From Podospora anserina (Eukaryota), in the NCBI GenBank assembly GCA_017654855.1, contig CM030332.1:5766001-5830000 (forward strand): a stretch of 64,000 nt of DNA. Reading direction: 5' to 3'. The translations under genes and the position numbers were made by a program. How positions within the stretch are numbered: the stretch's first letter is position 1; each line of letters begins with the position of its first letter. Of the stretch, positions 12,877 to 39,684 are shown one piece after another. The notes beneath the pieces are model-generated. The model ran no database searches, had not been told where the DNA came from, and was given only the letters and a program-made list of their open reading frames with translations.

Positions 12877-14201
12877 GGTGTTTAACTTGTCGTTGCCGGT
12901 GTGTGAGAAATTAATTACTTGGGACTTTGACTGAGGAAGAGAAGAAGAAAAACTGTCGACGATATAACTGGCGTTTGAGGGCAGTGGTCCGCGTGCGAAG
13001 GAGGTTGGGCAAAGTCCGCTGGTCGTTCTTTGGCAAGTTGGGACTTTATAGGATTCATGAGGCGAGAATATCACCAACGAAAACCAGGGGTTGGTGGTTG
13101 GTGACATGGCGCCATGTGTGTTGGTGCACTGATCTGGTCTCATTCTTCAACCTAAGTCATGCTGTTGGCTCTGTAGTACATGTGGTAGAATCAGGGCTGC
13201 GGTGAGGCTTGGCGATTGTATCACGTGCTCCTATCTTCCACTAGGCCTTGAACCTCATATTGCCCGGTACGGTAAGCATTGAAAGTTCTTTGCGATTATT
13301 AGGTGGGGAGGAGCTGTCCCTGACTGACTTGCTCCAAGTTAAATATCTTCATCGAGTTCTTTGGGGATGTAAATCGAGGTTTTCAAGTATGCAACTTACG
13401 GTGTAACACACATATTTTGGTCAAGAGGAGACCTACCAATACATCATTTATTTTGGAGATACATTAAGATTAATGGCACTATGTAAAATAAAATCAGACC
13501 AAGACAATGGAGGGTTGTTCGTATGTCAAACTCACAGAGTTGCTTAGGCCAAGCAACGCAAGCAACGCAAGCAACAAAGCCCAATCAATCAATGACCATC
13601 GAAGCAAAAGGCCTGCGGTCATCAACGGGCTGTGGAATTCCTCAGAAAGAGTCTTGATGGGCATTAAAAATTGTAACAACGACAGGTGCTATGTAGATGT
13701 GTATTACAGGTTATATTTTCAACAAATCGTCAGATGGCTGGCGGTCTTGAGCGTTCGTCCCGGTTAACCCATAGCATCCATGTTAGGATGGAATTACCTG
13801 CAGCGTTGGCACCGACACTGCCTAGGCTCGAGCCCACAGATCATCATTTCTTTTTACCTTCTAAGCAAATGATGGGTCGGAACAGTTGTGCCAGTGGCTC
13901 TTTCCCCAAACTGGTTGTTGCTTGGAAGACGACTCCTTAGCTTGACGGAGGAAAGAACGATGGAGATATTTGCCCAAAATATTGCCCCACACACACAACA
14001 GATAGAATGTTTTTATTTTTGCCTTGTAGTTCTCGTGGCCCCGTGGTTTCTTTTTTCTTCTTCTTTTTTTTTTCAAATCTCTCCCAGGCGCACTGCTTCC
14101 TCTTACACGCGCCCTTTTCTCGCTCCCAAACGGCCCTCTTTTTATCCCAGCTCCCACAGCAATCTATTTGTACGGACGATCCCAGCTTAGTAGCATTCAC
14201 C

Positions 14202-21492: not shown

Positions 21493-22816
21493 GGGTGTGA
21501 CAAATGGACGAGAGAGATATTGCACATTCTGAATTGGACACCCGCCATACACGCTCATCAGCGTTTTCTTTTCTTTGAATATGTTTTGTTGAGTTGGGCT
21601 GGAAAATAATGGCCTTGCCCTCCGGCGGGGTTTGGCAGGAATGGGAATGGGAACGGACAGCAAAACGCATTTTCTTTTTCACTTTACATACATGTCCTCT
21701 TGCAGATACCCAACAGTCTTTGATGGATTTGGGGTGAGATCCCCGACCGCAAAGTACTACTTACCTTACTGTTCTATTTTCTTTGATCTATGGCGTCAGC
21801 CTAGTTGTCATCGTTTGGTGGCGGATTGTCTCATCTCAGCTCTATGTGTTGGTTGTCTGTTTGATACCTACAAGCCGAACAAGTAAACGGCTTTGGATTT
21901 ATCAAAATATAATAGGATATATGTTCTCTGAAAGGCATAAATCGTTGCTTGTTCATCCTGATTTAACTTTGAAGACGTTTATGATAGGCCCCTGGCCCCT
22001 AGCATAACCGCCACGCTGAGAACAGATGTCTCTAGATTGAGGCTCAAAAGGTTTCACCTCCCAGCACTGCTCCCTTGGGATTGGTGGTTTATGAAGATAT
22101 ATGCTTGGAGATCGTTCAAGTTTGATCCAGCCAAAGCAAATCGACAATGAAGACCAAGGTGCAGTAGTCCGGTCGGCGACTAGCTCCGGAAGGTATAGGG
22201 GTAGCTGGGGAAGCTTTTGATATTATCTACCCTTTTATTCATGTTGCCATCACGCTTGAGGTCACCTTTCTGCATCCGCTTGGGATTGGCTGCAAAGGAC
22301 TTGAGGCCAAGGTTGTGGCAAGTGCCCTTGGGTATTAGGATTCTGTTATCAAATTAATTGAAAATTAAGTTTTGCTCATGATGGTTCCCAAGGTATAACG
22401 GCTTGTTCTAGAGTAATCGTTAGCTTGGGTTAACTAAAAAAGAATTCAAAATAATTAGCTGTGGCCAACGACTTAAAGGTACGGGGATGGGGGTGACTAA
22501 TGATATTATTAGTTGTTACAAAATATTGAATGACAAACGAAAAGGCGATATTGAATAGATAATTCGATCTTTGACTGTAAATTGGTGAAATTTCCAGCCC
22601 TTCTTTTACTACAATTCAAGTTGACTATCTTGACCTTGGCCGAATCAAATTGACAATAATCTTCCAAAGCCCCCAAATCCCCAGGCCCAATCGTCCTCAC
22701 TACTGGACTGCTTAAATCGTTGGTTGCTGCTTATCGAGTCAGCATCTTGCAAACCGAAACCAATACAAAGATACATACAAAAGAAAAGCAAATAGCAAAA
22801 CAAAGAAAGGCCGGTC

Positions 22817-23929
22817 TTACGGTGTGACGAAAAGACTATCGTGATCGGAGTCCCCCGCATCTTCTCCACTGCTCATCAAGTTATCCTGGACTTGGCCGGG
22901 ACCTTCATGGCGGGGCCACTCTTCCAAGACAACACAGCAATCCCGAAAGGTCGCAACCACATCGGTGACCGACCTGGGAAGCTGCTCACCGGCTTCTTCA
23001 AACTCCCTCACCAGTCGCAACATCATCGGCAAGTTGGCCTCTAACCCGTCGGCGAAGGCAAGGATACCCGCGCCAGGCACAAGCCGATTACGGGTGGCTT
23101 TGGGGGTGGCCGGCTCAACCACCCCGCCTGGACCGGGGTCGGGACCGGAGGCAGGGTCATCGGGAGAAGAAGCTGCATCCACGTGGCTCAAATCGGCACC
23201 GAGGCCGGGCCGGAAACCAAGGATTCTGACTGGGTGCTCCGCTAGCCGAGCTGGTCGGATCATCAGCTGAACGGGGAATCTGGTGACAAGTCCAGTCATG
23301 TGTTAATTAGCTTCCCCTGAGTGATTGGAAAGCTGATGTAAACACATACCTCTACCGAGATCGCTCTCCTCCTCAGACCCAGATGTCCAGTCCGAGTCAC
23401 TATCCCCGACGGTCATATCTCCGGTGACTTTCAACTCCTTCAAAAAGTCCTGCCATCTCTCTTTGCAGTCCGCAAGACGATAGTTGGCGCCGAGTAATGA
23501 TCCAACCCTGCCAAACTTGAGGGTGTCGTCAATGATCCTCAACATATACACCTGTGTGGACCTCGCATTCAGCGGAAACCGGGGGCATTCGTTGCTGGCC
23601 AAGTAAAGCTTCCGATTGGTGAGAAATTTATCAAAAATCGAGCTAAACCTGGCGTATAAGCGCGAGTACCCCAGCGTTGCTGCCACAATCTTGGAATGCC
23701 TTCTGTTCCCAAGTAACTCAATGAACCAATGATGGGCTTTGAATAGCAGAGTCAGGTTATTCAAAATAACCTCATTGGCCTGGTAAATTTGGGGGAAGAA
23801 AGACGGATCCTCAAAAAACTGACGAAGGTCATGATCATCTGCTTTCACAAACACCAGACGACCGCGACTGAACCCCGGGCAAACGGAAGAAAGGTCCAGC
23901 CAAATCGTGCTTGGATCGGCGAGAGGCAT
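22817..23929 (-). CDS. Hypothetical (orphan) protein; 2 exons, acceptor site uncertain
   Basis: ORF 23303-23929 has a GTATGT donor at 23349 and ORF 22817-23299 supplies the C-terminus. Both halves have homologous counterparts in the 14202-15207 pseudogene. Confidence 0.65.
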
Positions 23930-24649
23930 CTTTCGAGTCGGGAAACTGGCGATCGACAGGAAAGGGGAAATACGGGGTCTGGAAAGTACCTAGTCAGCCA
24001 AATACCAAAGCAATCAGGCTAGTCGAGATTAAAACTGTGTATACATACATATACACGCTGGCAGGTGCCCAGGTGATCAGGAGAACACACACTGCGAATC
24101 GATTTGGTGGCGGGCTTTGGAGTCGTGAAACTGAGAAATAAATAAGAACAAAAGGCCTCTCGTTTGAAAGTGGGTTAAAAGAATGGGAAGCAAATAGGAG
24201 AAAAGAGTTTTCATCAATTCCATTGAAGAAATGTGTGGAAAGGCAGAGATAACCAGTAAGATCAAAGGGAGATAAGCAAAGAGGAAGGAGGAGGGCGACA
24301 CAAGCTGAACTCTACGGAAAGAACCATGGAGGGCCACATCACCAAGGTCATTGTCGTCAGTTGCTCTTGGTTGCTGTTATGGGGTCCTTGGGGTCGTGTT
24401 TCAAGTGTCACTCACATAATACATGCCGGTTTGCTGCCTCTGGTGTCGATTTGTCTGCTTGTAAGCCATCACAGTACGGGTAGCACCATCTCTGGACCGG
24501 CCATGCCACAAAACGATTGGAGATATTTCCGTGCGAGGAATATTGCCCAAACGTAAGTTAGAAGATACATATTGGGTCTGGAAGAATACTTAGGTAGTCG
24601 GTCTCTAAAAACTTTTCTGTCTCGTCCGAGAACGGTTAGCCCAAAATCA

Positions 24650-24716
24650 GGCTCGCTTCACCCTCGGCTCACCCTCGGCTCACCTTGAGCTCACCACCGC
24701 TCACCCTACGCTCGCC
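24650..24716. repeat. Degenerate ~11-bp tandem repeat (GCTCACCCTCG-like, about 5-6 units)
   Basis: ggctcgcttcaccctcggctcaccctcggctcaccttgagctcaccaccgctcaccctacgctcgcc. Confidence 0.75.
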
Positions 24717-24846
24717 ATTCTCCAAAAACGACAACTTTACGCGACGCTCTCATAGTCCAAATTTGGAGCCTCCCTCTCGAAAATGGGCCCGGATAGGGAG
24801 GGTCCCATTTTTGACCCCCAAACAACTCCACCAAAACGGGGACCAA

Positions 24847-25143
24847 GAAATGGGCTCGCCAGCGTATTTACTCTCCGTTTTAGGGGACTCTGGGTCGTGG
24901 TGGCCATTTTGACATAACAAAATCCGTCACTCCCTACCTGCCTACTGTGCGACTTTTCTTCTCATGAAATGGGATTGCCAGCATACTGCTCTCCGTTTTA
25001 GGGGACTTTGGGTCGTACCCATTTTGACATGAAAAAATCCGTCACTCCCTACCTGCCTACTGCGCGACTTTTTTTCTTCTAGTTCTGGCTATATAAAGAG
25101 GCCATTCCATCCGTCCTACCACCTACTGCACGACTCTTCTCTC
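24847..25143. repeat. ~119-bp direct tandem duplication plus partial third copy upstream of the captain
   Basis: GAAATGGG..GCCAGC..CTCTCCGTTTTAGGGGACT.TGGGTCGT..CCATTTTGACAT..AAAATCCGTCACTCCCTACCTGCCTACTG.GCGACTTTT occurs at 24847 and 24966, with a partial copy at about 25110-25143. Confidence 0.9.
25089..25098 (+). promoter_or_regulatory. Probable TATA box of the captain gene
   Basis: CTATATAAAG about 160 bp upstream of the ATG at 25249, followed by a pyrimidine-rich leader. Confidence 0.5.
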
Positions 25144-25248
25144 CCATCTCCCCGTGTCTATATCACTGCCGCAAAACCTTTCTTTCCACACTTCATCGTT
25201 ATCGGCCTCACATTTTCGCCACACTAGCTCTCTACTGTGCCTTCTACA

Positions 25249-28200
25249 ATGCCGAGAAAGAAGAGCCCTCAAGAGTTCTTTCGCCGGGGAAAAGACAGGG
25301 GCTCAGAAAATTGCACGGAGGGAATAGACGGCTCCGCAGTTCACAAAAAGATCACGGACAAAGTCATGAAAGGTTACCAGCGCATGGTTGATCTGTGGAG
25401 CCAGTGAGGTCCTCAAACTCCTACTAACTGTCCGCTTCTAATATCCGTTTCAGATATGCCAAAGACCACCCCGGTGCGAGCCCTTACGACCTCAAGACTC
25501 TGAAGGACTTTGTGAAAGATATTGCATTTGGTATTGATGGTGCGGAAGACAACTCAGACCCAGCGGAAGGGACTGTCATGGTGTATTGGAAACAGTTTAT
25601 GGCGGGCTGGCGTCGTGAAAATGATGCTATTCCCAAAAATATCACACTCTCGGTTACGAATGTATGTATATGCACCATTTCTTTAATCGACTGGCCTAAG
25701 CTAAATGGTTTGATGGCAGTTCATTAAGTACGAGTTACCCGACATACTCAGGACAGAGGGCAAGGAGATCTTGAAAAATAAGCGGCCAAGAAGATTCGGT
25801 ACCAAAAACCACTTTCTTCACTTGGGGAGGCAATTATGGGGGAACGATTGGGTGGTGTGCGACAAGCCAGCGACGAGGGTGTACGACTGGGCGGATTTGC
25901 TTGCAATTGTGTGTTCCTCTGCACGCGTCGGTGAATACATCGAGTCTACTTGCCGGGCGGGATCTGGCCGTGGTTTATATTACAGGGTAAGCATTACCGA
26001 GTATCCGCATTGTCGTGTAATCGTACAAGCTGACGAAGAAATACCTCAGAATGTGACTTTTGGAGTCTTTCTCAACGAACATGGCAACGCGGAGTTTGCC
26101 GTTCAGCTAGTTCGAGATGCAAAGGGTATGACGGATAACCCTGCTAAAAGGTGAGAGACTGGCTGCCCGGCTTCGCTGACGGAAACGATCCCTCTAATCA
26201 AGTTCTGTAGGCCCGAGCACTCACTCTATGAAGGACTAGGAGAGATGCCACTTATCTGTAACCCCATGCTCCCGATATTGGCCATTCTCATTGGCACAAA
26301 GGCTTTCAAGGATTACGAAACCATAGAAGATCTACTCAACATACAACCATCAGAAGGAGAGATGATCCACTTACAGTGGAAGGAAAGCGTCCTTGACTTG
26401 CCCTTTTTCAAGAGCATGTCTGCAAGAGGTACGCCGGGAAAGATAGAAACGGCGACTGCATTCAGCAAGCGCCTTAGGCTCCTGGGTTTCCGCGCTGGGT
26501 ATTCACGTCCTCCCACAATTCACGACTTCAGAGCTGAGGGGCTATACTGGATTGGTACGTATATGGAGGTCCTCTTCCCAGTCCGACATACTAACCCTTT
26601 CACACAGATAAGTTATACAGCGTTGCCCAGAGAATGAAGCATGCCGGCCAGAAAGACCCCAACACGTACAACAACCATTATCAGCCCAATAATAGCGGTA
26701 CAGATGGCCAGGGCAGCTATTTCGGCCTTGATGTGCGCAACATCGCCAACGATCTCTTCCGCGGCTTAACACTTGCGCGCAACCCACAGCTGTGGCAGAC
26801 TCTCCCAGCAGAAAAGCAAGAAGAATTCCAAAATAGCCCTGAGTTTTCCAAAATAGAGAACAAGCTTGCAACTCTGCAGGGACAGCGAGACACGGACTCA
26901 GTCACACGCCGTAGGAACCTTTACGCCGAAAGACGAAGGCTGACTGAGAAAGAAGTCCGAAAGTACCAGAAAGCTCAGACGCTCCGTCCCAGCGGAGACA
27001 GGTTCCTGCAATGCTACCACCGATGTATATTCGACCGCGTCCGATTTCTTATGCCCGAACGCGACCGCCTCGCATCTACTCTTTTCGAGATTCATGCATT
27101 ACGGAGTCCAACTGGCCTCAGCGCCCTACGGGATATGGTTGCACTGTGTGAGAAAGATGCCGAAGTAGAGTTCCGACCTGGTTTAGAGCCGGAGAAATGC
27201 CACTGCTCTAGTAGGCCACACCAACGGAAACTAGTCAAATCAACCGATAGCAACATCAAAACACAATCTTTCTACGACTGGAAACACATATACCGTTGCT
27301 ATAAGAACAGTCACACCGACTTTGCGGAGCTTTGTTTCTTGTGCAACAATTGGTTTTTCGGGGAGGCACAATGGAGCAGTCATTGCCAAGCACATCTAAA
27401 CTGTCCGGAGACTCTGCCCATCCAATGCGATCCTCTCATATACGGCAACGTCCTCGCCGCTGCAGGATACTGTTTGTTCTGTATGGCGGATGTTTCATTA
27501 CCGCCTGAGGAGCGACTGCGTCAGTTTCTGGACAAATATCTGTGGAAGGATCATGTTCACGACCACTACGAGAAATACGTCCAGATGACTGCTGATGAGG
27601 AGAAATCGATCGAATGCCCACATATTGGAGGACGATGCGGTTCAGCATTTGAATCCGTTAAGCATTTCAGATATCATCTTCTAGATGTTCATTGCCCCGG
27701 CTTTACCAAAGAATCGAGCGTGTTGGAGATGGCTACGAAGGAAGATAACGAGGACCGCACCAGAGCCAAGATACCGAAAAGAAGCAAGGGAAGCAAACCT
27801 AGCACGGAAGATGGTATCAAAACAGGATTTCATTTTATCGACGAAACGGCCGAAATCGTATGCGGAAACCGTCCAACTGTCATACCCAAAGTGCCCTCCA
27901 ACCGTTCCGTGTTACCTCTTAATAGTCCTCGGGGCTGGGTCTGGACCGATGAAGCCGCTATGAGCGTTGAGACACTGTCATTGCCGATAAACAGCGGTAC
28001 GATTGAAGCCGATTTAGGGTTGCTCTTTGAAGAGACAAGCTGCCCTGATGCGTTCGGGCCCCGGTTGACGCTTGACACAATGGACCGCGGTATGCTCTCA
28101 AACGTTGAAAGCGACGTGAGCTCTCTCACTTCAATTCAAACCGCAGCCTGTTCACCTCCCCCTGTACAAGCGGGCCGACCATGGCTCTCTAGTAACGAGG

Positions 28201-28682
28201 AGTCGTGCGATCTCACCGCCCCAGATTTAGAGACTCCAGATCTGTCGCCGATATATTCAGCTTCGCAGCAGCGCCCACCAATAATTGAAGATCACAACTG
28301 CATATCAAAAGCAGGTCCGGAACCGGTTGCGGCTGTAGAGTCATCTAGTGATTTGGACGACGAGCCTGCTCATGCTCCAGACGGTAAGCACTATACCGTT
28401 GACCGCTTACTGGATAGGTGGAAAGGCTGGTTTTACGTGAAATGGTTTGATGGAAGCTGCAGTTGGGAGCCTCGCAAGAATATCCTAGACCCCGGGCTTA
28501 TCGAGGATCTTGAGAGGAATCATAGAGGGCTTCATTTGGGGGTGGAGGTCATACGGCCCCGTTCGACTAAAGGTCGCAAAACAGAATATCGGGTACATTT
28601 TAAAGGTCGCCCTAAGGAAGAGGATACTTGGGTGGCAGAAAAGTACATGAGCCCCAAGCTGATAGTGAAGAGATTAGTTTAG
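25249..28682 (+). CDS. tyrR: Starship captain: DUF3435 tyrosine recombinase with zinc-finger-like region and C-terminal tandem chromodomain-like units (1049 aa, 6 exons)
   Basis: Introns 25404-25453, 25662-25719, 25987-26049, 26151-26210 and 26555-26607 splice to one open 3150-nt CDS. YR catalytic-type motifs SSARVGE, TIHDFR and MKHAGQKD..TY..HY. Also CFLC...W..HC..H, GYCLFC and CPH...C......F.YHL.DVH. Confidence 0.92.
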
Positions 28683-28991
28683 TTAGATGCGGTTCTGGGA
28701 TTTATAGTTGCACTGGATACTTTCCTATATAACCAACAGTTGCTCACACTGCTTTTGAAGGATATTATCTTCTGTAAATATCCAGCACTCACTTCCGAAC
28801 CTCTGAAACTGACACCTGCGACGACTGCTGCAGTTCTGAGGCTTGTCGCCCTCATCTGTCATCAGGTCAGTGTTTAGTATGGATCCTATTCACTGGGCAG
28901 GTACCCCACCTTCATAAGAGAAATTATCCCAGTGCACACCCTTGCTGGGGGATAGGGTCGCATGTGGCGTTGCTGCAATAGCTAGGAGAGA

Positions 28992-29140
28992 TTTCTGCCA
29001 GGCAGAAAAGATATGTACCGATCATCGCAGCAAAGATACGTGCTTTTTCTGCCAGGCAGAAAAGATACGTACCGATCATCACAGCAGACATACGTGTTCT
29101 TTCTGCCTGGCAGAAAATCTCCGTACCGACCATCGCAGTA
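28992..29140. repeat. Three 54-bp tandem units, each headed by the palindrome TTTCTGCC(A/T)GGCAGAAA
   Basis: Units start at 28992, 29046 and 29100 and share the tail GTACCGAYCATCRCAG. Confidence 0.9.
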
Positions 29141-29903
29141 GCACTCTTTTTGGGGCCATCACAATGGTTTCAAGAGCTAGCCCCCTTGATTTCCTACTGG
29201 GCCTTGAAAGCGTTCGTTATAGCGCAATATAAAATTTATGACGCTTTAACTTTAGAGAGAATAAAGAAAGATAACTGTTTGCCCTTGAGTTTGTCAAATA
29301 TGTGAGGTGGACTTCGGGTGCTAGAAACAAAAGTCGTTTGCTCGTCTAAGCTAGGATGAGGGTCACTCGCGGAAAAACTCAAAACCTTAGCTCCACCTTC
29401 CACGCAGTGGTGTGGCACACGCCTCAAACCAGCATCAGTCTAGTTACAAACAATATCGGAATCCCGACATCAACAGTTTCCATTTCCGTTCTTGGACCTG
29501 AGCACTTGCCGCTTTAACCTGAGCGGAAGTGGAGAAGCCCTGAGCATGGCGAGAAAGGCCCAGCAGGGTGAGCAATGAGTAAATTTACGTGACACAAGGT
29601 TATTCCAGAGCTGTTTCTGGAGCGTAGAACGTTTGGTCAAGCAGGTAGGAATTGTGACAGGCAACCGCTGCCTTCGCCAGAGCCAGAAGCAGCGTGGTAT
29701 GTCCAAGCCAGAATCAGTTTCTGAATTCGTCCAAATCAGGCAAATCATCTCCCTCCAAACATTGTTCATCCCGGTTCACCGAAACTTTGGATAGTTTCTA
29801 ACTTGATCAGGCATGTAAGATTGCATTTTTACGCTAGTTCATACTCACCTCACGGAGCCGCCAGCCATCGAATGCTACCTTTTGAGTGGGTCTGTTTGAT
29901 TCC

Positions 29904-29992
29904 AAGAGCCATTTTTGGAGCAGAGCATTTTTGGAGTAGAGCCTTTGGAGCAGAGCCATTTTTGGAGCAGAGCCATTTTTGGAGCATAGCCA
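29904..29992. repeat. ~17-bp minisatellite (AGAGCCATTTTTGGAGC, about 5 units)
   Basis: Directly visible tandem units with small indels. Confidence 0.85.
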
Positions 29993-30073
29993 GTTGGCTT
30001 GACAATATAAAAAGGAACTTCTGCCCTCTGCAGAGCCAAAAACAGCTTCCACATAATTACAACGCAAACCATT

Positions 30074-30212
30074 AAGCCTAAGGCAGCGCTAGGATCATGA
30101 CATGATATCTCAGCCTCTGCTAAAGCCAGAAACGGCTTTTTTCATTTTATCTGTGTAGGCAGCGGTGGTCTGCCTTTGCTAGAACCAGAAACAGCTTCTA
30201 TATTTTGGCCTA
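30074..30212 (+). repeat. ~135-bp dispersed repeat, copy 1 (copy 2 at 56022-56152)
   Basis: AGCCTAAGGCAGCGCTAGGATCAT.ACATGA...AAAGC.AGAAACGGCTTTTT...TGTGTAGG...TCTGCCTTTGC...CCAGAAACA.CTTCTAT...TTGGCCTA. Confidence 0.85.
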
Positions 30213-30759
30213 ATGTCACAACCCTGATGTGGGATCAGAACGGACTTGGTTAGGAAAGCAACCAATGAGGAACGGATCATTGGGTCTTGGCAATGATCCT
30301 GAGGTCGCCAATGATCCATCTCCTGGATCGTTGGATCATCTTCCCAGTCTCTTCCTGTCGTTTGGAGATGGAACAGTAAGAAAGATCACTCGCACGGCCA
30401 CTCGCTCTGCAGCTGACATTTATATCAGCCCAGTTACAGTAAGAAAAGATGGGAGCATATATTTCGATGCTACAAGAAGTATTGCAAGGCAGAATCTAGC
30501 TTCGCTCGATTCTTACAATACTTAGCAAACCAGCGAGACAGAGTAGGAGGCCCATTGTCAAGGTCATATCGACAATAAGAGGCATATCCACGACTGCATT
30601 CTGAATTACATCCAAGCCCAGCATGACTCAAGGCTGGTACTCTTAGTACTCTCCAGTAGAAATTACTAGAAAAGTGACCTGGAAAGGACTGATAAAGAGA
30701 AAAGGATTGGTAAGGTGGAAAGACGAGAAGGATTCACGATTGCCCCGCTTTTCACTCTT

Positions 30760-31330
30760 CCGAGCCCTTGCAACCGGGCCAACGCGCAGAGAGCCGAGTA
30801 TCTACTCCTTCGATCACAGGAGTGAATTGAGCATGATGATCTTTCCAGTGCCTGGGGCTTCCTACAACAATGGACTCCCTGTTATGCAGCGCAGCCCTCG
30901 GCTCTCGGGAGCATCCTGAGCTCCGTATTAACCTTCTGAAGGGAAAGATTCTGAGATTTTGGGGCAAATTTGACGATTCGCGCCAGTACCTGGAGCCTCT
31001 TGTGGCTCGCAATTTTTATCATGGATTCACCACATCGCTGTATACTCTGAACTTGATTTCTGGGGGAAGGTATATGTAAACTTGGAGTCGACAGTGGTAA
31101 ATACCGAACAGCAGTAGCGGATGCTTCAGCTATCAAAGGCTGAATATCATCTAGCACGTGAACTCTCGATCGACTCTTATGACGACGATTTCAACACCGC
31201 GAGGGACCTTTTTATTGGGCTTTCACAAAAGTATATGGCACTGGAACCATGCAGTCAAGCCAGGAAGCGCAACTATTTCGTATTTGCGAAGGACTTGCCG
31301 TGGCTTACTATATGCAACTACGTCAACTAA
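30760..31330 (+). pseudogene. TPR/helical-repeat protein remnant
   Basis: Frameshifted fragments LRINLLKGKILRFWGKFDDSRQYL and DFNTARDLFIGLSQKY resemble TPR-like helices. Multiple stops. Confidence 0.4.
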
Positions 31331-31526
31331 ACGGTCTCTAAATCTGACCTTAACAAGCCCTGGAAAACTAACAGCCGTATATGATGTCTTCACTGCTTAG
31401 TGGCGCCAATCCGCTGCGCCCATCTCCATCATCATCTAGGCAACCTCCTCGTGCCTCCCCAGTCGAGTGACCTAAAGACCGTTTCCATAGGTGCCGTCTT
31501 GTACAAGGGGGTACTCGTCGTTGGCA

Positions 31527-31955
31527 TTAATTTAAGGGCTCTGCCATGCCGCCGGCGTTGAAGACCTTGCTGGGAGCCCTCGTCGTACACGAGCTTGGGG
31601 GGTCGGGCGTGAACAAGGAGCCTCCGGTTGGTTTATAGCGGAAGGGAGAGCCCAATACCTTCGAGCTCCTATCATGGTGGACGCGGAGAGGAGGAAGCTT
31701 ATGATTGTCTGAGCTTTTTTGAGGAAATAAATATTGTATAGGAGGCCCTGAGCTGATAGGGAAGAGGGCCGAGCTGTCCTCGAGACCCAAGGAGCGAGGA
31801 GAGGTTATAAACGGTTGGTATTGGAAAGGAGAGCCCAAGGCCGTACAATCTTGGTTGTTGCGGTGTGGTTTCTGAGGTGTATGATCGATGGAAATGCAGT
31901 CCTGCAGTCTCAAACTTGCATTCATAACACTTCCGAGATTTTCTCGCTGACTCAT
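31527..31955 (-). CDS. Hypothetical 142-aa protein with an internal LGSPF(Q/R)Y repeat
   Basis: ATG at 31955 within ORF 31527-32054, with a TATA-like TATAA upstream on the minus strand. The motif occurs twice. Confidence 0.4.
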   Translation of the reverse strand: MSQRENLGSVMNASLRLQDCISIDHTPQKPHRNNQDCTALGSPFQYQPFITSPRSLGLEDSSALFPISSGPPIQYLFPQKSSDNHKLPPLRVHHDRSSKVLGSPFRYKPTGGSLFTPDPPSSCTTRAPSKVFNAGGMAEPLN

Positions 31956-32439
31956 TGTATCGTAGTTGCTTTTGAGCGCTCTGTAAGTGTGAATGGACTT
32001 TGGTGGGTGTAATCTTGGTATCTTGAGCGGTTTACCTGCGGTGTGCAGATGCATTATATATTATGGAGCTGCAGGTTAAGGAGCTATATGTGGGTAATCA
32101 ATACTATAAGCCCCAAGCAATAGGTCTAAATACAAAATGGGCTAAGGAATAACATATTGCCTTTGCATCTCTGTCAAGGGTCACTTGTGCTCGGCTAGCG
32201 CAACTTGGATCCAGCCATCTGTTTCGCCGCGTGAACAGATTGAGTGGGAGAGGACAGGTCCAGGTACCCCGTCCGAGACAAGTTGGTGACGACTCACAGG
32301 TGTTTCCTATTCTAAATTAAGAACTAGGCGTCTACAGCTTTACCTATTTCCCAATATTAGGCAGCTCGAACCTCAAGGTACCTTCGGCCACAATGCGTGG
32401 CATAATGAGTCCTTTAAGCATATCTCGAGCTTGCGAATC

Positions 32440-32652
32440 AAACCATTCCTTGTCCAAGACGCCCAAGGTAGGAGAAATGCACTTCATGAGTCGGCACAAC
32501 ATGCTGTCCCTCAGCCACGTGTACTTGACAACAGGTCATGGATTCAAATATACGCCTGCGTTGAGTTATACCGACCCAGTCTCAAGGTTACAGCCCAGGC
32601 ATTAGACTCGCACTGTGCTTGGTGGAATGCTTGGCTGGATACGGAGGCTTGA
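32440..32652 (+). pseudogene. Gene fragment paralogous to the fragment at 63796-64000 (-)
   Basis: FMSRHNMLS..HVYLTTG/SWIQIYACVELYRPSLKV..QALDSH versus FMTRHKLLS...QVYLTTGSWVQIYRYIELYRPSLCV..HALNSH. 1-nt frameshift at about 32535. Confidence 0.7.
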
Positions 32653-33435
32653 TGTGTTGGATGGTGTGGTTCTCTGCATAAACTTAAGACACTAGGTGTT
32701 GAATAGATGACGAGTAATTAAGGAGATAATTAAGAGCAATGATCGTACAGCGTTTAAGAATTCTTTTCTCAATTCCGTGATTGCATCTACCAGAAGTCAC
32801 CACTTGCCTGTTACTGCCAAGCACATCAAGCTTCGAAGTACATGATCCCTAGACACCTTAAGCGCCTCCCGCTCAACAGGATCGATTCCGCTAAAACAAC
32901 CCATGCTATCGTCCCAAGAAATAACCAAGCTTGTACCAAAGCGTCTAAATTGCGGAGGAGCGACGTGAAAGCACACGCCAATGGCACTTACCGGCCAAAA
33001 GCCAGAAACGGGAGACTGTTACACAACTTCTAACACATAGCGGTCCCCAAGAGTGAGCTGAACGCTGAGCTGGAACAATTGTCATTATGTTGACCGCTCG
33101 GCGTTGGGTATCCAGCAGGGAACTCAACTATCGGCTGTCTGCAGGGCTATAAGTGGCATTGGCTGGATACTGGTAGCCTTGTCTGGTAGGTGTAAGCCGC
33201 TGGTAGCCTCGCGGGAATGGCTGGTAGGTCTGGCGCGGTCGGAACCGGCTGGCGGGACTCACTGGAATCTGCTGGTGCCTCTGAAACCGGCCCAGAGCAA
33301 GGGAACTGCTCTGGTAGCGATGAGGTAATGAGAGGTCGTACTACAGGACGATTCGGGTGCTGGGCACCAAGTTGTCAGACAAGCTGTGGGTGTTGTTGGT
33401 TGATTCCATGAAAGTATCTGTGGGGCTATGGTACA

Positions 33436-33601
33436 TGTAAGATATCTGAGTGTCTGTCTGTTCCGTCACGTGCCAAGCCAACCCTAACCCTGCCAATACC
33501 TAACATGGAGGAACTGGCTGGCGTAGATAGACAGTTCCGCAGTATGCAATAAAAGTCACAATCGTTGGTATCTTAGCCATTGTGTATAGGGGTTCGTCAC
33601 A
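33436..33601 (+). mobile_element. Short LTR-derived remnant related to the solo LTR at 45777-46220
   Basis: Shares GGAGGAACTGGCTGG.GTAGATAGACAGTTCCGCAGTATGCAAT and the terminal TAGGGGTTCGTCACA. No TSD seen, and the left end is uncertain. Confidence 0.65.
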
Positions 33602-34299
33602 TCGCCCGGTCCAGCCCTGAATGGTCCCTTACGTCTCCCCTATCTTCCAAACCGTGACACCGTGCCAATTCTATACTGCTGTTCCGCCACAAAGAAAGTG
33701 GATAGGCACCCCACACTTTTGCATGTGACACCCTGTGGCGTGCTGCCATCTGCAGCTAGCCTTCTCGGCGGTCTGGAAGAGCATGACGTCACCCCTGCCT
33801 GGACCACCTGACCGTCCCTCGGTTTTCTGCTACCACCAAATGTTTCCCCGACAACAAGGCAAAAGGCGCAGGCATCCTCGCCACCACGAATAACGAACAG
33901 CCTTTCCATCACCACTTTTTCCTCGACTTTCTTGATAAACACCGACAACGCTTACCTATCGGTCAGACCTGCGCAGACGATTTCCTGTACGTTAGCCGAA
34001 TCGAGCAGCGGGCGCCAGGCAGGCCGGCTCTGTCAACCTCAGCACGCCCTCTACGCAAGTAACCAAATGCTAATCGAGCGACCATACAGTGAACAGCAGC
34101 ACCAAGCAAGCCCGTCCCGCCAATCCCAGCAGACTCTTACGCAGGCAGCTCGGTTTGGCGATTACCTGTCCAGGTGAGCCAGTCCCGCTAGCCTCAACAA
34201 GCTCTTGCGCAGGCGACCAGACGCTGATTGAGCGATCGTATAGTTTGCTACGCAAAGTCCAGCCGGAATGCCACGCATACCCATCCTCTTTCACCCAAC

Positions 34300-37200
34300 A
34301 TGGATGATCGATCGGGAGGCGAAGGTACAAAGCGACCGGCGCCGAGCCTCTGCCTGATTGATACCGACACGACTATCACGAAGCGCAGGCGGATGACGCT
34401 CGAATACCTACACCAGCGCCCTTTAACGGGCGGAAAATGCGTTAATCTGCGAGACGTCCAAGTGCTACTGCGGCAGGACGGCAGCCGGCAGACGCTGTAC
34501 ACCGACATCGTGGCCCATTGGGCTACGGATTACGCCACGGCGACCACGGACGGCCGGCTCCAGCCAGAGCACATCGATTGCGATAAGATGTTCCGCGATC
34601 TCAAGCTCTATGCCGGTATCCAGGAACACAGTGACGCCGAGGTCAAGAGTCAAGTCCTGGCAGCGTATGTGGAGTCGGCAGCCGGTAGCAGTGACCACGA
34701 AGACTACGTCCGCGATGACGAGAGCCAGGACAGCAGTATCGCCTCAGGTCGGTACGACATCCGAACGGCCGGGGACCTGCGGGTCTTGTTTCTCCACCTC
34801 AGCAAGTGCGCAGCTGCCCGATAGGACGGGAGCCCAGACTTACCCTTGCTGGAACTCGTCGTACGGAATGTTGAAGCAGCGACCACCGAGACAGGCCCCG
34901 CAGCTAACGTCGCCGAGGTCGACAAGGTCGCAGCACCCACCGCAGACAGAGATAAAGAAGAGCCGCCTAGTCCACAGTACGAGCCCGACCAACCACCCAC
35001 GCCTCAAGATATAACCCCCATCTACGCCACAGCTATCAACGAGGACGGTAACGACGTCGCAGAAGATGTCGACAATATATACGGCAATATCAGCGAGAGT
35101 GTCAGCGAGGCGGCCAAGACGGGCTGTGAGTTTAGCGACAATACTCGGACGATAACTCGGTGGTGTTTATATCCGAGCGGTCCCTTGCGTTGACGGATAA
35201 TGACCAAGCATCGCCGGGATTATACGACAGTGAGGCGGACAGTGAATACGGAACCGCCGCCTCCGTAGCGAATTCTCTGCAGAGTCTCAGCGCGGCTCTC
35301 TGCACTATAGATGACACAGAGCGCTGGGAAGCCACGTGCAGGCTCTTCTGCCACAACCAGGCACACACCGCACACGACCAGGGCGCCAAGCTGCTAGGGA
35401 CGAAACGCCGCCTCCGCCCTTACCAGATGGAGGCGGCCTACGAGCTACTACAGCGGAGCTTTGGCGGGCAGTTCGACGGCGGCATCATGGCGCTCGGCAC
35501 CGGGCTGGGAAAGACTGTCGCCAGCCTGGCCGCAATCGCCATCATGAGGCTAGTGGAGCTTAACAATTCCGAGGTCAAACAGGACTGGGACATCGGAGTC
35601 ACCGCCAACCGTCGGCACAACGGCCCGGGGATGATGGGACCTTGCCCATCAGGCAACCCGTGGAGCATTGAGTGCTGCTGCGTAGCCGGCTCGCTCAGTT
35701 CCAAAATCGCCCTCCAGCTGGGACCCGGCCCGTCGCTCATCCTCACCCCGGCCGGCATCACCAGCCAGTTCGCCGGGGAGGCTACCAACTACCTAGAGAA
35801 GCAGGTCCAGCGGCCGGAATCGGACACTTGCATCCCATTTGTGGACACGATTGACGTGAGCGCTAACTCTACCCTCGCACGCGACATCCGAGATGACATC
35901 CTGACGGGCTTTATCGGGGACCAACCAATCTACATGGCACCAAAGAAGGGGGGACCTGCAGGCAGTGCCTGCATTTGTGCAGGGCTCGGGGTCCCAGATG
36001 GGATACACGGCGGGCCAGGTGCAACAGCTCTTCTGCAAGCACCGGCTCCTGGTCGTCAGCAGCAGCCCTCTCTCGCGCTCTTGGCAAAGGGGGAGGACTA
36101 CCGCTCAGGCTTTGCCCAGGCCTACGACTTGCAGCAGCAGCAGAGAAGGGCGGCTAAGCGGTACATTGCTCGGTGGGCAGTGGCGCCGAGGTTTGTTATC
36201 CTGGACGAGTTTCACACCGTCAAGGACAAGGCGACCGTCGTGTACAAAACACTGCAGCAGATCCGGAGCCAGGCCGCTCCCGGCCATAGCTTCAAGCTCG
36301 CGGCGTTAAGCGCGACGCCGATCTCCGTGTCGCTGCAGCGGAGCCTGAGCTCGGTACTGTCGCTCATCTTGCCCGGCGGCGTGGACGCGTTCTGCGGGGC
36401 CGCACAGATTATCGACTCTGCAACAAAGGCCGGCAAGCCCAAGGACGTGGACAAGTACAATGACGCCATCACCACATGCTGCAAGCTGCTCGGGAGCATC
36501 ATGACGCTCCGTACAACGAGGAGCCTCTTCCATGGCAACGTGCTGGTACCGCTCCCCAAGCTCCATTCCAGACAGATCCCCTGCAGATCTGAGAGGGCGC
36601 AGAGGGACGACTTCCGGCGTAGGTTGGGCGAGCTGACGGCGGCATGGAGCCAGGAGATCCGCGCCAGTCTCCGGAACCAAGCGCCCGAGAGCGACGACGC
36701 GCTGCAGGACCGCTTCTTCAACTTCGTCCGTTACAACCCGTCATTCATGCTAACACTCTGGCTTGCATCATTCCCAGGCATTGTTGACCTGCCCGACGAG
36801 CTTTCGTCCAACCCGGGCGAATGGCTGAATAGCGACAAGCTCGGCAATACCGTCGCTACAAGTGAGGGACGCGCCGACCATACCGTCGGCCGGTATATCG
36901 ACATCATCACGGGCGGGAGCGGGAAGATAGAGCAGCTCAGTCAGTGCCTGGGTCGGGCCCGCAAGGACCTCCACCGCAGTTGCGCAGGGGACGACGGCCA
37001 ACCGGCCCCGGTGCTCAAGAAGCACGCCTGCGTCTTCGCCTCGCGGCCGGGCATCGCACTCATCGTCGCTGCATACGCAGACAAGCACTGGGCCTCGGAG
37101 TGGGAGGTCGTCATGGTTCTCTCGGCCACCCCGGAGGGGAAGAAGGCGATCGGCGGAGCCTTCCATGACATCCCGATCGGCAGCGTAGAGAAGCCCACGC

Positions 37201-37490
37201 TCTTTATCGCCACCGTCGGTACGTGCGGTACCGGTCTCGACAGCCTCCAGAAGGCGAACCACGCTGTCCTCTTTGACCTGCCCTTTGTCGAGTCCGAGAG
37301 AAAACAGGCCAGAGGTCGCATCTGGAGGTCTGGACAGCGGTTTCCCTGCTACTGGACCGAACTCTGGGCGGCCGATAGCGACGCTGAGGTCCTGATTAAC
37401 GACCGCCACGAGAGACGTATGGAGGTATTCAACCGGGTCCTGAGTTGCCACAGCGGCGACGGCAGTCGGGCAGGAGGGAGTGAGCAGTGA
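34300..37490 (+). CDS. Divergent SNF2-family (SF2) ATPase/helicase; probably disrupted
   Basis: Motifs GGIMALGTGLGKT (I), SLILTP (Ia), VILDEFH (II), LSATPI (III), SGKI, GTGLD.LQKAN and QARGRIWRSGQ (V/VI). In-frame TAG at 34822 in the N-terminal extension. Possible intron 35126-35208. Apparent compensated frameshift at about 35965-36150. Confidence 0.8.
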
Positions 37491-37797: not shown

Positions 37798-39270
37798 TCA
37801 GTAACCACTCCGAGTTCTTCCGTATGGTGGTGATGGGACAGATACGCTGTCGGGCTGATAAAGGCGGGATTGCAAAAGGCGTTGAAGGTAGAACAACCGA
37901 AGAGAAAGCGGGTCTAGCATCATTGCTGATCGTGTCCCAAGGTACCTAGCTAAAGCATCACAACACCGAAAGGCGCAGGTGTTACCGGTATAGTCCTGGA
38001 GAGGATGTAAAGTTGCCTCAAGGGGGCTAACTTGAAGTGCATCTTGATAGGCTACTTTGTACTCGTTCAGCATATCCTCGGTCATACCGTAAGCGATAAA
38101 CGTCTTTCGTTTCTTATCAATAATGGCAATAACCCAGTGATTATCGTTAACGTTATATGGCATGACAATACTGACAATACTGCCTCCTGCCGTGGCCTTT
38201 GCCGCCCTCTGAGGTGGGACTCCCAAAGTGTATTCTCCGAACTGTTCTAGTTCCAAACTCAACAGCTCATATAGGATACGTCCCGTAATCATTTTCCCGG
38301 ATTTAAACTGAAGCAAGTCGTCTCGAGGCCAGTGAGAGGCGCCAAACTTGATCAAAGTTGCGAGTTGCTCTCCAATAGTCCCAGAAAGCTCTGGTAAAGT
38401 GAGTCCCATAACCACTTCGTCAGTTTGCAAGGGTGGAGAAGAGATGTGGATCGGGTCGCCCGGATTGTCCCCACACCTCACTCGGTTGGGCGGGCTATCA
38501 GGAGAAAGATCCGTGACTGTGTGGCCGTATTCCCGCTCCGCTGCTATGTCTTGTCCATGATTGCTCGGGCGCATCGAGTCATCCCCGCCGTCGGATCTGG
38601 TACCGCGGATCAACGAATCGCTCGTAGAACCGAGCCGTCCGATGCCTTGCACGTCTGGTCCAGTCGGGACTTTGTTAGGCACCAAGGTAGGTTCACTGTG
38701 CCGACTGGAATTGAGCGAATTTCCTGTTTCCCACGAGTTTGCCGCGCTCGAGTTACTATGTCGAGACTCCTCCTTTCCGTCTCTGTAGTCCGTACGACCA
38801 ACAACCTGTTGTTTGGCTATCAGGCTATTGGGCAAGTGCGGCGGACTGTGCAAGGTGTGTTGGCTACTGGTTTGCCGGGAGCCATTGGGGGGATTGGCAG
38901 GTTCCGGGAGGTCTGCGGTCTCCGAGCAGTGCTGCGCGTTGTTGGAAGGCAAGTTGACGCTGGGTGGATTTACCCTCGATAGTTTTGGACTCGGTCCTAC
39001 AGTCGCATTCTGTGGTGAAGTAGAGGCTGCCGGGGCGTTGCTAGGCAGCGAGGCCCTACGTTCGCTGTGTTGGCTGGCACCGTTGCCTTCGTGTCTCGGC
39101 CGCTTAAGTCTTTCGGCCGCGTTGGGGTCTCCACATCGTTTCTTGCGGGGGTCTCGATTAGGTCTGGGTCGGAGCTGTTCTGTTGTTGTTTCGCCCGGGC
39201 AAAATGCCTGTCTGTTCCTGTCGTGGTTTACCGCCGTCAACTGTGTACCAGGCCCGCCCTGAGAAGCCAT
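37798..39270 (-). CDS. Ulp1/C48-like (SUMO-protease fold) protein with long disordered N-terminus
   Basis: IVMPYNVNDNHWVIAII (catalytic His) and LQDYTGNTCAF (Gln/Cys). The expected Asp position reads AYG, so activity is uncertain. Confidence 0.7.
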   Translation of the reverse strand: MASQGGPGTQLTAVNHDRNRQAFCPGETTTEQLRPRPNRDPRKKRCGDPNAAERLKRPRHEGNGASQHSERRASLPSNAPAASTSPQNATVGPSPKLSRVNPPSVNLPSNNAQHCSETADLPEPANPPNGSRQTSSQHTLHSPPHLPNSLIAKQQVVGRTDYRDGKEESRHSNSSAANSWETGNSLNSSRHSEPTLVPNKVPTGPDVQGIGRLGSTSDSLIRGTRSDGGDDSMRPSNHGQDIAAEREYGHTVTDLSPDSPPNRVRCGDNPGDPIHISSPPLQTDEVVMGLTLPELSGTIGEQLATLIKFGASHWPRDDLLQFKSGKMITGRILYELLSLELEQFGEYTLGVPPQRAAKATAGGSIVSIVMPYNVNDNHWVIAIIDKKRKTFIAYGMTEDMLNEYKVAYQDALQVSPLEATLHPLQDYTGNTCAFRCCDALARYLGTRSAMMLDPLSLRLFYLQRLLQSRLYQPDSVSVPSPPYGRTRSGY

Positions 39271-39684
39271 TGGCAACTCTTCACTTATCCCGTCGCTGTA
39301 TTGCGTGTCGTCTGCCTTGATGCCAGGAGAGGGAGCTGGTAGGCCGTGTGCAGATGTTAGTCTAGAAATATTAATAACATAACGAGTTTCCTAACCTTGG
39401 ACTTAAATAGGGGGAGTTTGTGGTAAGAAATGGATATTCAGCTTCCCATTCTTCAACCTCCTCAACGTTCTCCCTCCTTTCGTGCCGACCTCTTTGCCCA
39501 GGAGTGCAGATAATGGAATTTGTCCGGAGTTTATTTCGAGTTTCGGTATCTCATCTTTAAGTGTATTGTTATTTCTTCTCGATGAAAGTCGCGAGTAAGG
39601 TTTATCGTTCGTGAAGCCAGTTTTTGTGAGTCTGGCTCGCTATAAAGCTATGCACCAGAAACCGCTATTGCGACTTGCTATGCT

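What the first reader, a model, noticed from the sequence alone, without database searches (positions are those of the whole stretch)
25249..28682. Intact Starship captain fused to tandem chromodomain-like units
Seen: five canonical introns yield a 1049-aa open frame with YR motifs. After a Ser/Pro-rich linker come YTVDRLLDRW...FYVKWFDGSCSWEPRKNILDPGLI and EYRVHFKGRPKEEDTWVAEKYMSPKLI (28389-28679). Established knowledge: chromodomains on chromoviral integrases bias insertion to heterochromatin. Inference: this recombinase may read methyl-lysine marks and steer a giant element into heterochromatic accessory regions like the pseudogene-rich flank seen here.
Basis: partly seen in the sequence, partly recalled or inferred. 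Interest (0 to 1): 0.8.

Follow-up and report, generated by a model that had tools for sequence, protein, structure and literature searches.

The report
Kirc-type Starship captain with double chromodomain
This fungal gene encodes an intact mobile-element recombinase that ends in two chromatin-reader-like domains, but the same design and the same targeting idea have already been published for the Enterprise transposon of Podospora.

Summary
Five GT..AG introns (50-63 nt) join six exons (25249-28682, +) into a 1049-aa frame. It is collinear with five fungal homologues at every junction. The protein has a DUF3435 tyrosine-recombinase core with R-K-H-R-Y, three C2H2-like Cys/His motifs, a Ser/Pro-rich linker and a C-terminal Pfam Chromo match (39.9 bits, cut-off 25.1, two stretches). 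AlphaFold2 folds the last 102 residues into two chromo units (pLDDT 92.9). These match HP1/Polycomb and CHD/cpSRP43 chromodomains.

It is not new. Vogan et al. 2021 (PMC8092012) describe Kirc, the Enterprise captain, as recombinase + Zn finger + C-terminal chromodomain. Gluck-Thaler & Vogan 2024 (PMC11162782) already propose heterochromatin targeting. ATACTT|AGGTAG lies 657 bp upstream of the ATG, matching the published Enterprise target motif. Contigs of all four runs laid break or start at 24586-24614.

The cage is incomplete by the recalled HP1 pattern: unit 1 keeps two of three aromatic positions, unit 2 one. The 5' flank is neither AT-rich nor RIP-like. The 3' end and size of the element, and transcription in this organism, remain unshown.

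The parts
24586..24597 (+). ATACTT|AGGTAG: putative 5' junction and target-site repeat of the element
   Evidence: Sequence read and RGGTAG scan. It has the same form as the Enterprise site ATACYT||AGGTAG in PMC8092012 section 5. Loose ends 'before' lie at 24586 (X17, 3 contigs with differing flanks) and 24587 (X22). Pieces start at 24586-24587 in X19 and X22 and at 24614 in X21.
24587..24778 (+). Multi-copy 5'-terminal segment, dispersed as solo copies (bufo-like behaviour)
   Evidence: pieces 24587-24778 in X19 and X22 and 24614-24778 in X21 sit inside contigs of 261-1989 nt that continue unlike the window. X17 depth is 165 in this bin against about 28-29 over the captain body.
24847..25077 (+). 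115-bp subterminal tandem repeat (2 copies), each copy carrying CTACCT, the reverse complement of AGGTAG
   Evidence: TRF (86% matches), self-BLAST, motif positions 24934 and 25049 on the minus strand. Organism-B contigs skip 116-118 nt here (table 5).
25249..28682 (+). Captain gene: six exons (25249-25403, 25454-25661, 25720-25986, 26050-26150, 26211-26554, 26608-28682), 1049 aa
25924..26681 (+). Tyrosine-recombinase catalytic region (R190 25924-25926, K235 26122-26124, H348 26521-26523, R351 26530-26532, Y383 26679-26681) within the DUF3435 match
   Evidence: Pfam, motifs and coordinates, conservation. The residue roles are inferred from motif resemblance.
27333..27692 (+). Cys/His-rich region with three C2H2-like motifs (residues 601-621, 647-678, 695-720)
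   Evidence: Regex and coordinates. Sources name the homologues 'C2H2-type domain-containing protein'. No Pfam zinc-finger hit at E<=1.
27693..28373 (+). Linker rich in Ser and Pro, poorly conserved
   Evidence: Composition of residues 761-950. The best core homologues cover only 55-66% of exon 6.
28386..28523 (+). Chromo unit 1 (module residues 5-50; Tyr954, Trp971)
   Evidence: AF2 model. dHP1 chromodomain Z 7.5, rmsd 1.2 A over 46 residues; Polycomb Z 7.3. Conservation.
28536..28679 (+). Chromo unit 2 (module residues 55-102; Phe1023)
   Evidence: Best Pfam Chromo stretch. PDB phmmer hits CDYL and CBX7 at E about 1e-3. CHD1, CHD4 and cpSRP43 chromodomains at Z 5.6-6.0.

Best explanation
This is a Kirc-type (Enterprise-family) Starship captain. 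It is an intron-containing gene for a DUF3435 tyrosine recombinase and sits about 0.66 kb inside the 5' end of a mobile element that inserted at ATACTT|AGGTAG. The recombinase core would do the cutting and joining. The Cys/His region most likely helps DNA or site recognition. The conserved C-terminal double chromodomain most likely tethers the enzyme to chromatin and adds a regional bias on top of the sequence-specific target. What is shown: the gene structure, the domains, the chromo fold of both units, the conservation of the double module at the C-terminus of related proteins, and the 5' boundary. What is inferred: catalysis, what the chromo module binds, any effect on targeting, and the size of the element. 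The architecture and the heterochromatin-targeting hypothesis are already published.
For: Gene model. Domains: one search gives Chromo at 39.9 bits against a cut-off of 25.1, and DUF3435 at 29.1 against 25.8. Candidate R-K-H-R-Y residues. The H-to-Y span is 36 residues, the same length as the published Kirc span 309-344, and it would carry the same numbers if that model starts at this protein's Met40. C2H2-like motifs. Fold: pLDDT 92.9 and pTM 0.82 with two beta-beta-beta-alpha units. Foldseek's top rows are cpSRP43 CD2-CD3, CHD4/CHD5 tandem chromodomains and Polycomb/HP1/CBX7. VIA gives Z 7.5 and 7.3 for unit 1 and about 6 for unit 2. Module conservation: 186 representative proteins at E<=1e-3 and 77 at E<=1e-10. 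Of the 150 listed, 89 match both units in one stretch, and 84 of those 89 end within 30 residues of the C-terminus. In one search, 8 of 54 homologues carry PF00385, and a ninth (P0001) has the same module. Boundary. Literature: PMC8092012 (sections 5 and 7 read) gives Kirc as DUF3435/YR + Zn finger + CHROMO, as the first ORF, with TSD RGGTAG. [quoted passage not shown] Preprint 10.64898/2026.01.28.702382 (passages) reports Enterprise-family elements in Pyricularia more covered by H3K9me3 and H3K27me3 than Arwing elements.
Against: No transcript evidence exists for this gene in organism A. The canonical aromatic cage is incomplete in both units, so methyl-lysine reading is not assured. The closest core homologues (Gaeumannomyces, Tolypocladium, Xylogone and Verticillium proteins, 42-60% identical over 60-66% of exon 6) end without a chromodomain, so the module is dispensable in some lineages. 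The 5' flank is GC-normal and not RIP-like. The 3' end of the element was not found, so 'giant element' is unproven. The only hint is a TpA/ApT step from 0.60 to 0.85 between about 24 kb and about 61 kb. I could not compare the gene with the published Kirc sequence. The heterochromatic state of Enterprise elements in Pyricularia may be a consequence of silencing and not of targeting.
Confidence: 0.8

Rival explanations
1. The double chromo module is not a methyl-lysine reader. It binds DNA or RNA, or another protein or peptide motif, as the tandem chromodomains of CHD remodellers and cpSRP43 CD2-CD3 do. It would serve assembly of the recombination complex or nucleosome and DNA contact, not heterochromatin recognition.
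For: The cage is incomplete. In unit 1 the third aromatic position is replaced by Asp-Gly, each conserved in 28 of 37 sequences. Unit 2 keeps one aromatic position (Trp in 16 and Phe in 14 of 37) and has Arg (28 of 37) where the canonical Tyr would be. The best whole-module Foldseek matches are cpSRP43 CD2-CD3 with the Alb3 tail (E 7e-4) and the CHD4/CHD5 tandem chromodomains. pTM 0.82 suggests that the two units pack as one body.
Against: Unit 1 superposes on the HP1 and Polycomb chromodomains solved with H3K9me3 and H3K27me3 peptides (rmsd 1.2 A, Z 7.3-7.5). It keeps the first two cage positions in most relatives: Tyr or Phe in 23 of 26, Trp in 32 of 34. From recall, two-aromatic cages can bind methyl-lysine, as in CHD1.
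Confidence: 0.3
2. The locus is a solitary or minimal captain unit of about 5-6 kb, or a stranded captain, and not the head of a giant cargo-carrying Starship. The element would end in the repeated block at 29.2-30.4 kb, for example at AGGTAG 29643-29648.
For: In organism B the depth is multi-copy at 24.4-25.6 kb and again at 29.2-30.4 kb, but single-copy over the captain body. One contig joins 24706 to 29325 (side 30 nt). A plus-strand AGGTAG lies at 29643. No crew genes or Spok genes were identified downstream.
Against: An organism-B contig runs on across 29648, from 29477 to 29775. The dinucleotide signature stays shifted to about 61 kb. RGGTAG occurs at chance frequency: 53 seen against 46 expected. 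The joint rests on one contig with 30 nt on its shorter side.
Confidence: 0.25
3. The chromo module is a separate downstream gene and not part of the captain, as the split annotations in a close relative suggest.
For: In Apiosordaria backusii the 92%-identical core (P0021, 517 aa, partial) and the 96%-identical module (P0055, 100 aa partial; P0205, 107 aa) are filed as separate proteins on one contig.
Against: In the window one frame stays open for 695 codons, from the recombinase C-terminus through the module. P0001 (592 aa) and longer relatives (P0085 1043 aa, P0104 914 aa, P0156 930 aa) carry core or Zn region and module in one protein. Four of the six shorter 'chromo-only' hits that I read begin within the captain's last Cys/His motif, as truncated models would (by eye).
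Confidence: 0.07

Closest known systems
Kirc, captain of Enterprise / the Spok block of Podospora (Vogan et al. 2021, Genome Res, PMC8092012; sections 5 and 7 and passages read)
   Same: The domain order is the same: tyrosine recombinase/DUF3435, then central Zn finger, then C-terminal chromodomain. It is the first gene at the 5' end. The target motif is RGGTAG in the context ATACYT||AGGTAG. The 5'-terminal segment also occurs as dispersed solo copies, as 'bufo' does. The H-to-Y catalytic span is 36 residues.
   Different: I could not align it to the Kirc sequence, so identity, orthology or paralogy is open. The paper speaks of one chromodomain; here there are two packed units. No Spok gene was identified in the window, but only ORFs of 150 aa or more were scanned, and only with Pfam. 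The 3' end (schoutedenella-like) was not identified.
Enterprise-family Starship captains with CHROMO domains (Gluck-Thaler & Vogan 2024, NAR, PMC11162782; passages read)
   Same: The same fusion and the same hypothesis that the domain biases insertion towards heterochromatin.
   Different: That paper gives no structural or cage analysis in the passages I saw. Its supplements were not seen and may list this very captain.
Chromoviral (Ty3/Gypsy, e.g. MAGGY) integrase chromodomains (Gao et al. 2008, cited in PMC11162782; not read here)
   Same: A C-terminal chromodomain on a mobile-element integration enzyme, proposed or shown to direct integration to H3K9-methylated chromatin.
   Different: The enzyme class differs (DDE integrase against tyrosine recombinase). 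Those have a single chromodomain. Here there is a double module with an incomplete cage and a sequence-specific target site.
Tandem chromodomains of CHD1/CHD4/CHD5 and cpSRP43 CD2-CD3 (PDB 2h1e, 4o9i, 6guu, 5e4w)
   Same: Two adjacent chromo units. These are the best whole-module Foldseek rows.
   Different: TM-scores normalised to the query are at most 0.42 and rmsd is 9-18 A over both units, so the mutual arrangement is not matched. The linker here is about 5 residues, with no inserted helices.

Membership tests
Starship captain (DUF3435 tyrosine recombinase) | Pfam PF11917 match above the gathering score | tested here: met
   29.1 bits against a cut-off of 25.8 on exon 5 alone, plus 19.3 bits on the start of exon 6. 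The spliced protein could not be handed to the tool whole.
Starship captain (DUF3435 tyrosine recombinase) | Catalytic R-K-H-R-Y pentad | tested here: met
   R190, K235, H348, R351 and Y383 sit in motifs that are the same in the homologues whose models cover them: all five for the R, H and R motifs, four of five for K (P0014 is gapped there). The Y motif is NHY in three and KHY in two. Assignment is by motif resemblance, not by structural superposition.
Starship captain (DUF3435 tyrosine recombinase) | First gene at the 5' end of the element, transcribed inward | tested here: met
   The boundary at 24586-24597 is supported by loose ends or piece starts in all 4 runs laid. The ATG lies 657 bp downstream on the same strand.
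Starship captain (DUF3435 tyrosine recombinase) | Large cargo-carrying element with both ends and an empty site defined | tested here: inconclusive
   The 3' end was not found. There is only a compositional step from about 24 to about 61 kb. No whole genome is held, and the single read-laying run covered 22001-34000.
Enterprise family / Kirc | Domain order YR, then Zn finger, then chromodomain | tested here: met
   compared with PMC8092012 Fig. 4A legend.
Enterprise family / Kirc | RGGTAG target-site repeat at the element's 5' end, in the context ATACYT||AGGTAG | tested here: met
   ATACTTAGGTAG at 24586-24597, compared. The matching 3' repeat was not identified.
Enterprise family / Kirc | Phylogenetic placement of the captain with Kirc | not tested
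   No Kirc sequence was available in the tools. Only the numbering coincidence H348-Y383 against 309-344 bears on it.
Chromodomain (PF00385) | Profile match above the gathering score | tested here: met
   39.9 bits against 25.1, two stretches.
Chromodomain (PF00385) | Three-stranded antiparallel sheet packed by a C-terminal helix | tested here: met
   AF2 gives strands 9-16, 19-24 and 29-33 with helix 40-49, then strands 57-65, 69-76 and 85-88 with helix 94-101, at pLDDT 92.9.
Chromodomain (PF00385) | Three-residue aromatic cage (HP1 Y24/W45/Y48 pattern; positions recalled) | tested here: not met
   Unit 1 has Tyr954 and Trp971 but Asp-Gly at the third position. Unit 2 has Leu, Phe and Arg (with the alignments).
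Chromodomain (PF00385) | Binding of methylated histone lysine | not testable with these tools
   Needs peptide or nucleosome binding assays.

The most novel reading that the evidence does not exclude
The compact double chromodomain is a distinct, conserved subfamily that occurs mostly at the C-terminus of Kirc-type captains. It has a two-aromatic half-cage plus a conserved Asp in unit 1 and a cage-less unit 2. It would read something other than H3K9me3, for example a lower methylation state, H3K27me or H4K20me, nucleosomal DNA, or a host heterochromatin protein. That reading would explain why Enterprise-family elements sit in heterochromatic compartments while other Starship families do not.
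Probability: 0.2. Interest if true: 0.55.

Novelty: already known. Interest (0 to 1): 0.25.

Why it matters
If captains really use chromodomains to choose chromatin neighbourhoods, that would help explain where giant cargo-carrying transposons land in fungal genomes, and why some Starship families stay silent in accessory compartments. That question is already posed in the literature for exactly this kind of captain. This locus adds a clean, apparently intact example.

Tried and rejected
(1) Whole genome: none is held for this window, so copy number, the empty site and the 3' end could not be searched.

(2) RNA evidence: no RNA holder is listed for the stretch. The two organism-A runs guessed to be RNA (X21, X22) gave no contig over the captain CDS, which says nothing either way. 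X19 (organism C, RNA only as a guess) has short pieces on 27600-27791, 28029-28329 and 28343-28668, the last with 24 extra letters, an in-frame length. None crosses an intron, so splicing is not confirmed.

(3) Global MAFFT of the 102-aa module with full-length captains scattered the fragment (A1). I dropped it and used short hits instead (A3).

(4) Self-BLAST of the window found no second copy of the 5' end and no terminal inverted repeats.

(5) RGGTAG count: 53 seen against 46 expected, so it is not enriched. The plus-strand candidates for a 3' repeat at 29643, 58339, 58999 and 60304 cannot be told apart.

(6) Pfam on 20 further ORFs gave HET, multicopper oxidase, NAP, a weak SNF2/helicase match and a weak Ulp1 match, but no kinase and nothing that names Enterprise crew genes or Spok.

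(7) Earlier notes of this scan: nothing on this genome or this sequence. Three unrelated captain notes were not used.

(8) Whether the module also exists as a stand-alone protein family: 4 of 6 'chromo-only' sequences that I read look like truncated captain models. P0081 does not. This was left open.

(9) Supplements of the papers were closed. They may hold the Kirc sequence and lists of captains with CHROMO domains.
Full report
**Observation.** I read the region and rebuilt the model. Six exons are joined by five GT..AG introns of 50, 58, 63, 60 and 53 nt: 25249-25403, 25454-25661, 25720-25986, 26050-26150, 26211-26554 and 26608-28682. A MAFFT alignment with five fungal homologues (P0002, P0005, P0014, P0021, P0043) shows no gain or loss of residues in the window's protein at any of the five junctions, and it shares the N-terminal residues. 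Three of those homologues' own models have a gap or an insert beside a junction. In the contigs of a sister organism, the only indel listed inside 25550-27929 is a 1-nt deletion at 26024, inside intron 3.

**Domains.**
- Pfam gives DUF3435 (PF11917) at 29.1 bits on exon 5 alone (cut-off 25.8), and 19.3 bits on the start of exon 6.
- Pfam gives Chromo (PF00385) at 39.9 bits (cut-off 25.1) with two stretches on 28389-28679.
- Candidate catalytic residues are R190, K235, H348, R351 and Y383. They lie in motifs that are conserved in the homologues whose models cover them. Their roles are inferred.
- Residues 601-621, 647-678 and 695-720 form three C2H2-like Cys/His motifs. Pfam reports no zinc-finger family there, although sources name the homologues 'C2H2-type domain-containing protein'.
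- A linker follows that is rich in Ser (12%) and Pro (11%).

**The chromo module.**
- A HMMER search with the last 102 residues against 1.84 billion representatives found 186 proteins at E<=1e-3 and 77 at E<=1e-10.
- Of the 150 listed, 89 match both units in one stretch. In 84 of those 89 the match ends within 30 residues of the C-terminus.
- I scanned the 63 listed hits of 304 aa or more with Pfam. 49 carry Chromo and 4 carry DUF3435.
- 12 of the 150 match the captain's non-chromo part by BLASTP, and 12 of 150 match its Cys/His region by phmmer.
- Four of six shorter hits that I read begin inside the captain's last Cys/His motif and look like truncated models. One (P0081) does not (by eye).
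- AlphaFold2 on an alignment of 37 sequences (A3) gave pLDDT 92.9 and pTM 0.82, with two beta-beta-beta-alpha units.
- Foldseek against the PDB ranks cpSRP43 CD2-CD3, the CHD4/CHD5 tandem chromodomains and single Polycomb, HP1, CBX7 and CDYL chromodomains highest.
- The search that does not lean on Foldseek aligns unit 1 to the dHP1 chromodomain (Z 7.5, rmsd 1.2 A, 46 residues) and to Polycomb (Z 7.3). It aligns unit 2 to CHD1, CHD4 and cpSRP43 chromodomains (Z 5.6-6.0).
- No solved tandem reproduces the mutual arrangement: TM-scores normalised to the query are at most 0.42.

**Aromatic cage.** I used the HP1 pattern (Y24/W45/Y48), which I recall and did not take from a call.
- Unit 1 keeps the first position, Tyr954 (Tyr in 19 and Phe in 4 of 26 aligned sequences).
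- Unit 1 keeps the second position, Trp971 (32 of 34).
- At the third position unit 1 has a shortened loop with Asp-Gly, each conserved in 28 of 37.
- Unit 2 has Leu, Phe1023 (Trp in 16 and Phe in 14 of 37) and Arg (28 of 37).

So the fold is confirmed, but a canonical trimethyl-lysine cage is not.

**Element context.**
- ATACTT|AGGTAG lies at 24586-24597, 657 bp upstream of the ATG.
- Vogan et al. 2021 (PMC8092012; sections 5 and 7 read) report that Enterprise and the Spok block insert at RGGTAG, in the context ATACYT||AGGTAG. They report that Kirc is the first ORF, and that the first 463 bp ('bufo') also occur as solo remnants.
- I laid contigs of four runs on 22001-34000. Contigs of three of them break or start at 24586-24587, and the fourth (X21) starts at 24614.
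- X17 shows three contigs whose upstream parts differ from one another (agreement 0.6).
- A segment at 24587-24778 recurs inside otherwise unlike contigs in organisms A and C, and the bin that holds it has multi-copy depth in organism B.
- In organism B, depth is about 165 at the 5' end against about 29 over the captain body. That body is covered at about 98% identity, chromo exon included: 38 differences over 25550-27929, and 27 differences plus 17 gap letters over 27907-29501.
- The 5' boundary is therefore well supported and matches the published Enterprise site.

**What is not settled about the element.**
- The 3' end was not found. No genome is held, and self-BLAST shows no terminal repeats.
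- RGGTAG is not enriched: 53 seen against 46 expected.
- A hint of a large element comes from TpA/ApT. It steps from 0.60 (sd 0.09) left of 22.6 kb to 0.85 (sd 0.12) between 24.6 and 58 kb, and falls back to about 0.5 at 61 kb (Mann-Whitney p 2.6e-5).
- A hint of a small one: repeated sequence at 29.2-30.4 kb, and one contig joining 24706 to 29325.
- The flank to the left is GC-normal with no RIP signature. Its nearest gene appears as a spliced contig in a run guessed to be RNA. That does not fit 'heterochromatic, pseudogene-rich flank'.

**Comparison with what is known.**
- Kirc is described as tyrosine recombinase/DUF3435 + central Zn finger + C-terminal chromodomain. Its chromodomain logo was drawn from 279 homologues (legend of Fig. 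4).
[quoted passage not shown] They cite the MAGGY chromodomain precedent.
- A 2026 preprint (10.64898/2026.01.28.702382; passages) finds Enterprise-family elements of Pyricularia heterochromatic. The word 'chromodomain' does not occur in it.
- Two searches, 'DUF3435' + 'chromodomain' and 'Starship' + 'tyrosine recombinase' + 'chromo' + 'heterochromatin', found no paper whose listing pointed to a tandem or cage analysis of captain chromodomains. I read only the listings, apart from the passages cited above.
- The H-to-Y span here (348-383, 36 residues) has the same length as Kirc's 309-344. It would have the same numbers if Kirc's model starts at this protein's Met40, as the Apiosordaria model P0021 does. 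That is a coincidence worth checking, not proof.

**Distribution of the fusion.**
- Among the 54 homologues, 8 carry PF00385. A ninth (P0001) has the same module at 65% identity.
- The closest core relatives that I read in full (P0002, P0005, P0014, P0019, P0043) end without a chromodomain.
- The Fusarium and Monosporascus relatives carry a different tandem. By eye it is canonical, with Phe/Trp/Tyr in its first unit. It is only 29-31% identical to this module over 42-54 residues.
- Three others carry a single chromodomain. The fusion is therefore recurrent or labile within the family.

**Verdict.** The locus is an apparently intact Kirc-type captain.

Noticed in passing
window 24847-25077: A 115-bp tandem repeat (2 copies, 86% matches) lies between the element's 5' end and the captain ATG. 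Each copy holds CTACCT, the reverse complement of the AGGTAG target motif. Organism-B contigs skip 116-118 nt here, so copy number varies. These could be recombinase binding sites.
   Followed up: partly
window 22817-23989 (minus strand): The gene just outside the 5' boundary appears as a contig of run X22 (RNA only as a guess) that skips 23280-23349. This is a 70-nt intron with one differing letter. Pfam finds no family for ORF 23303-23989.
   Followed up: partly
window ~24000-61000: TpA/ApT rises from about 0.60 to about 0.85 at about 24 kb and returns to about 0.5 at about 61 kb, while GC stays near 50%. This may mark a block of about 36 kb of foreign or mildly mutated origin that starts at the captain.
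   Followed up: partly
window 33507-33584 and 46039-46082: A very short, very high-copy repeat. Depth is about 1377 in organism B against about 28 for single-copy sequence, and it is present in all four runs laid. A 44-bp second copy (98% identical) lies at 46039-46082.
   Followed up: no
window 28856-29072: A contig of X19 (organism C) skips 217 nt whose ends read CT..AC, that is GT..AG on the minus strand, just 3' of the captain's stop codon. This is either a minus-strand intron of a convergent transcript or a deletion. It runs into the 54-bp tandem repeat at 28992-29138.
   Followed up: no
window 35136-37490 (+), 37798-39390 (-), 48197-48880 (+), 10867-13146 (-), 7939-9339 (+): Neighbouring ORFs and their Pfam matches: weak SNF2/ResIII/DEAD-type helicase (it may correspond to the DEAD-like helicase gene Uhera of Enterprise; untested), weak Ulp1 protease, NAP nucleosome-assembly protein (128.8 bits), HET domain (103.5 bits), multicopper oxidase.
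   Followed up: no
P0021, P0055, P0205 (Apiosordaria backusii records): The closest named relative has the captain filed in pieces on one contig: a 517-aa partial core (92% identical) and 100-aa and 107-aa 'chromo domain' proteins (96% identical). Public annotations therefore under-report this fusion.
   Followed up: partly
P0081, P0113 (hits): Some proteins with the same double chromo module have a different, Ser/Arg-rich N-terminal part with no captain similarity. The module may also exist outside captains.
   Followed up: no
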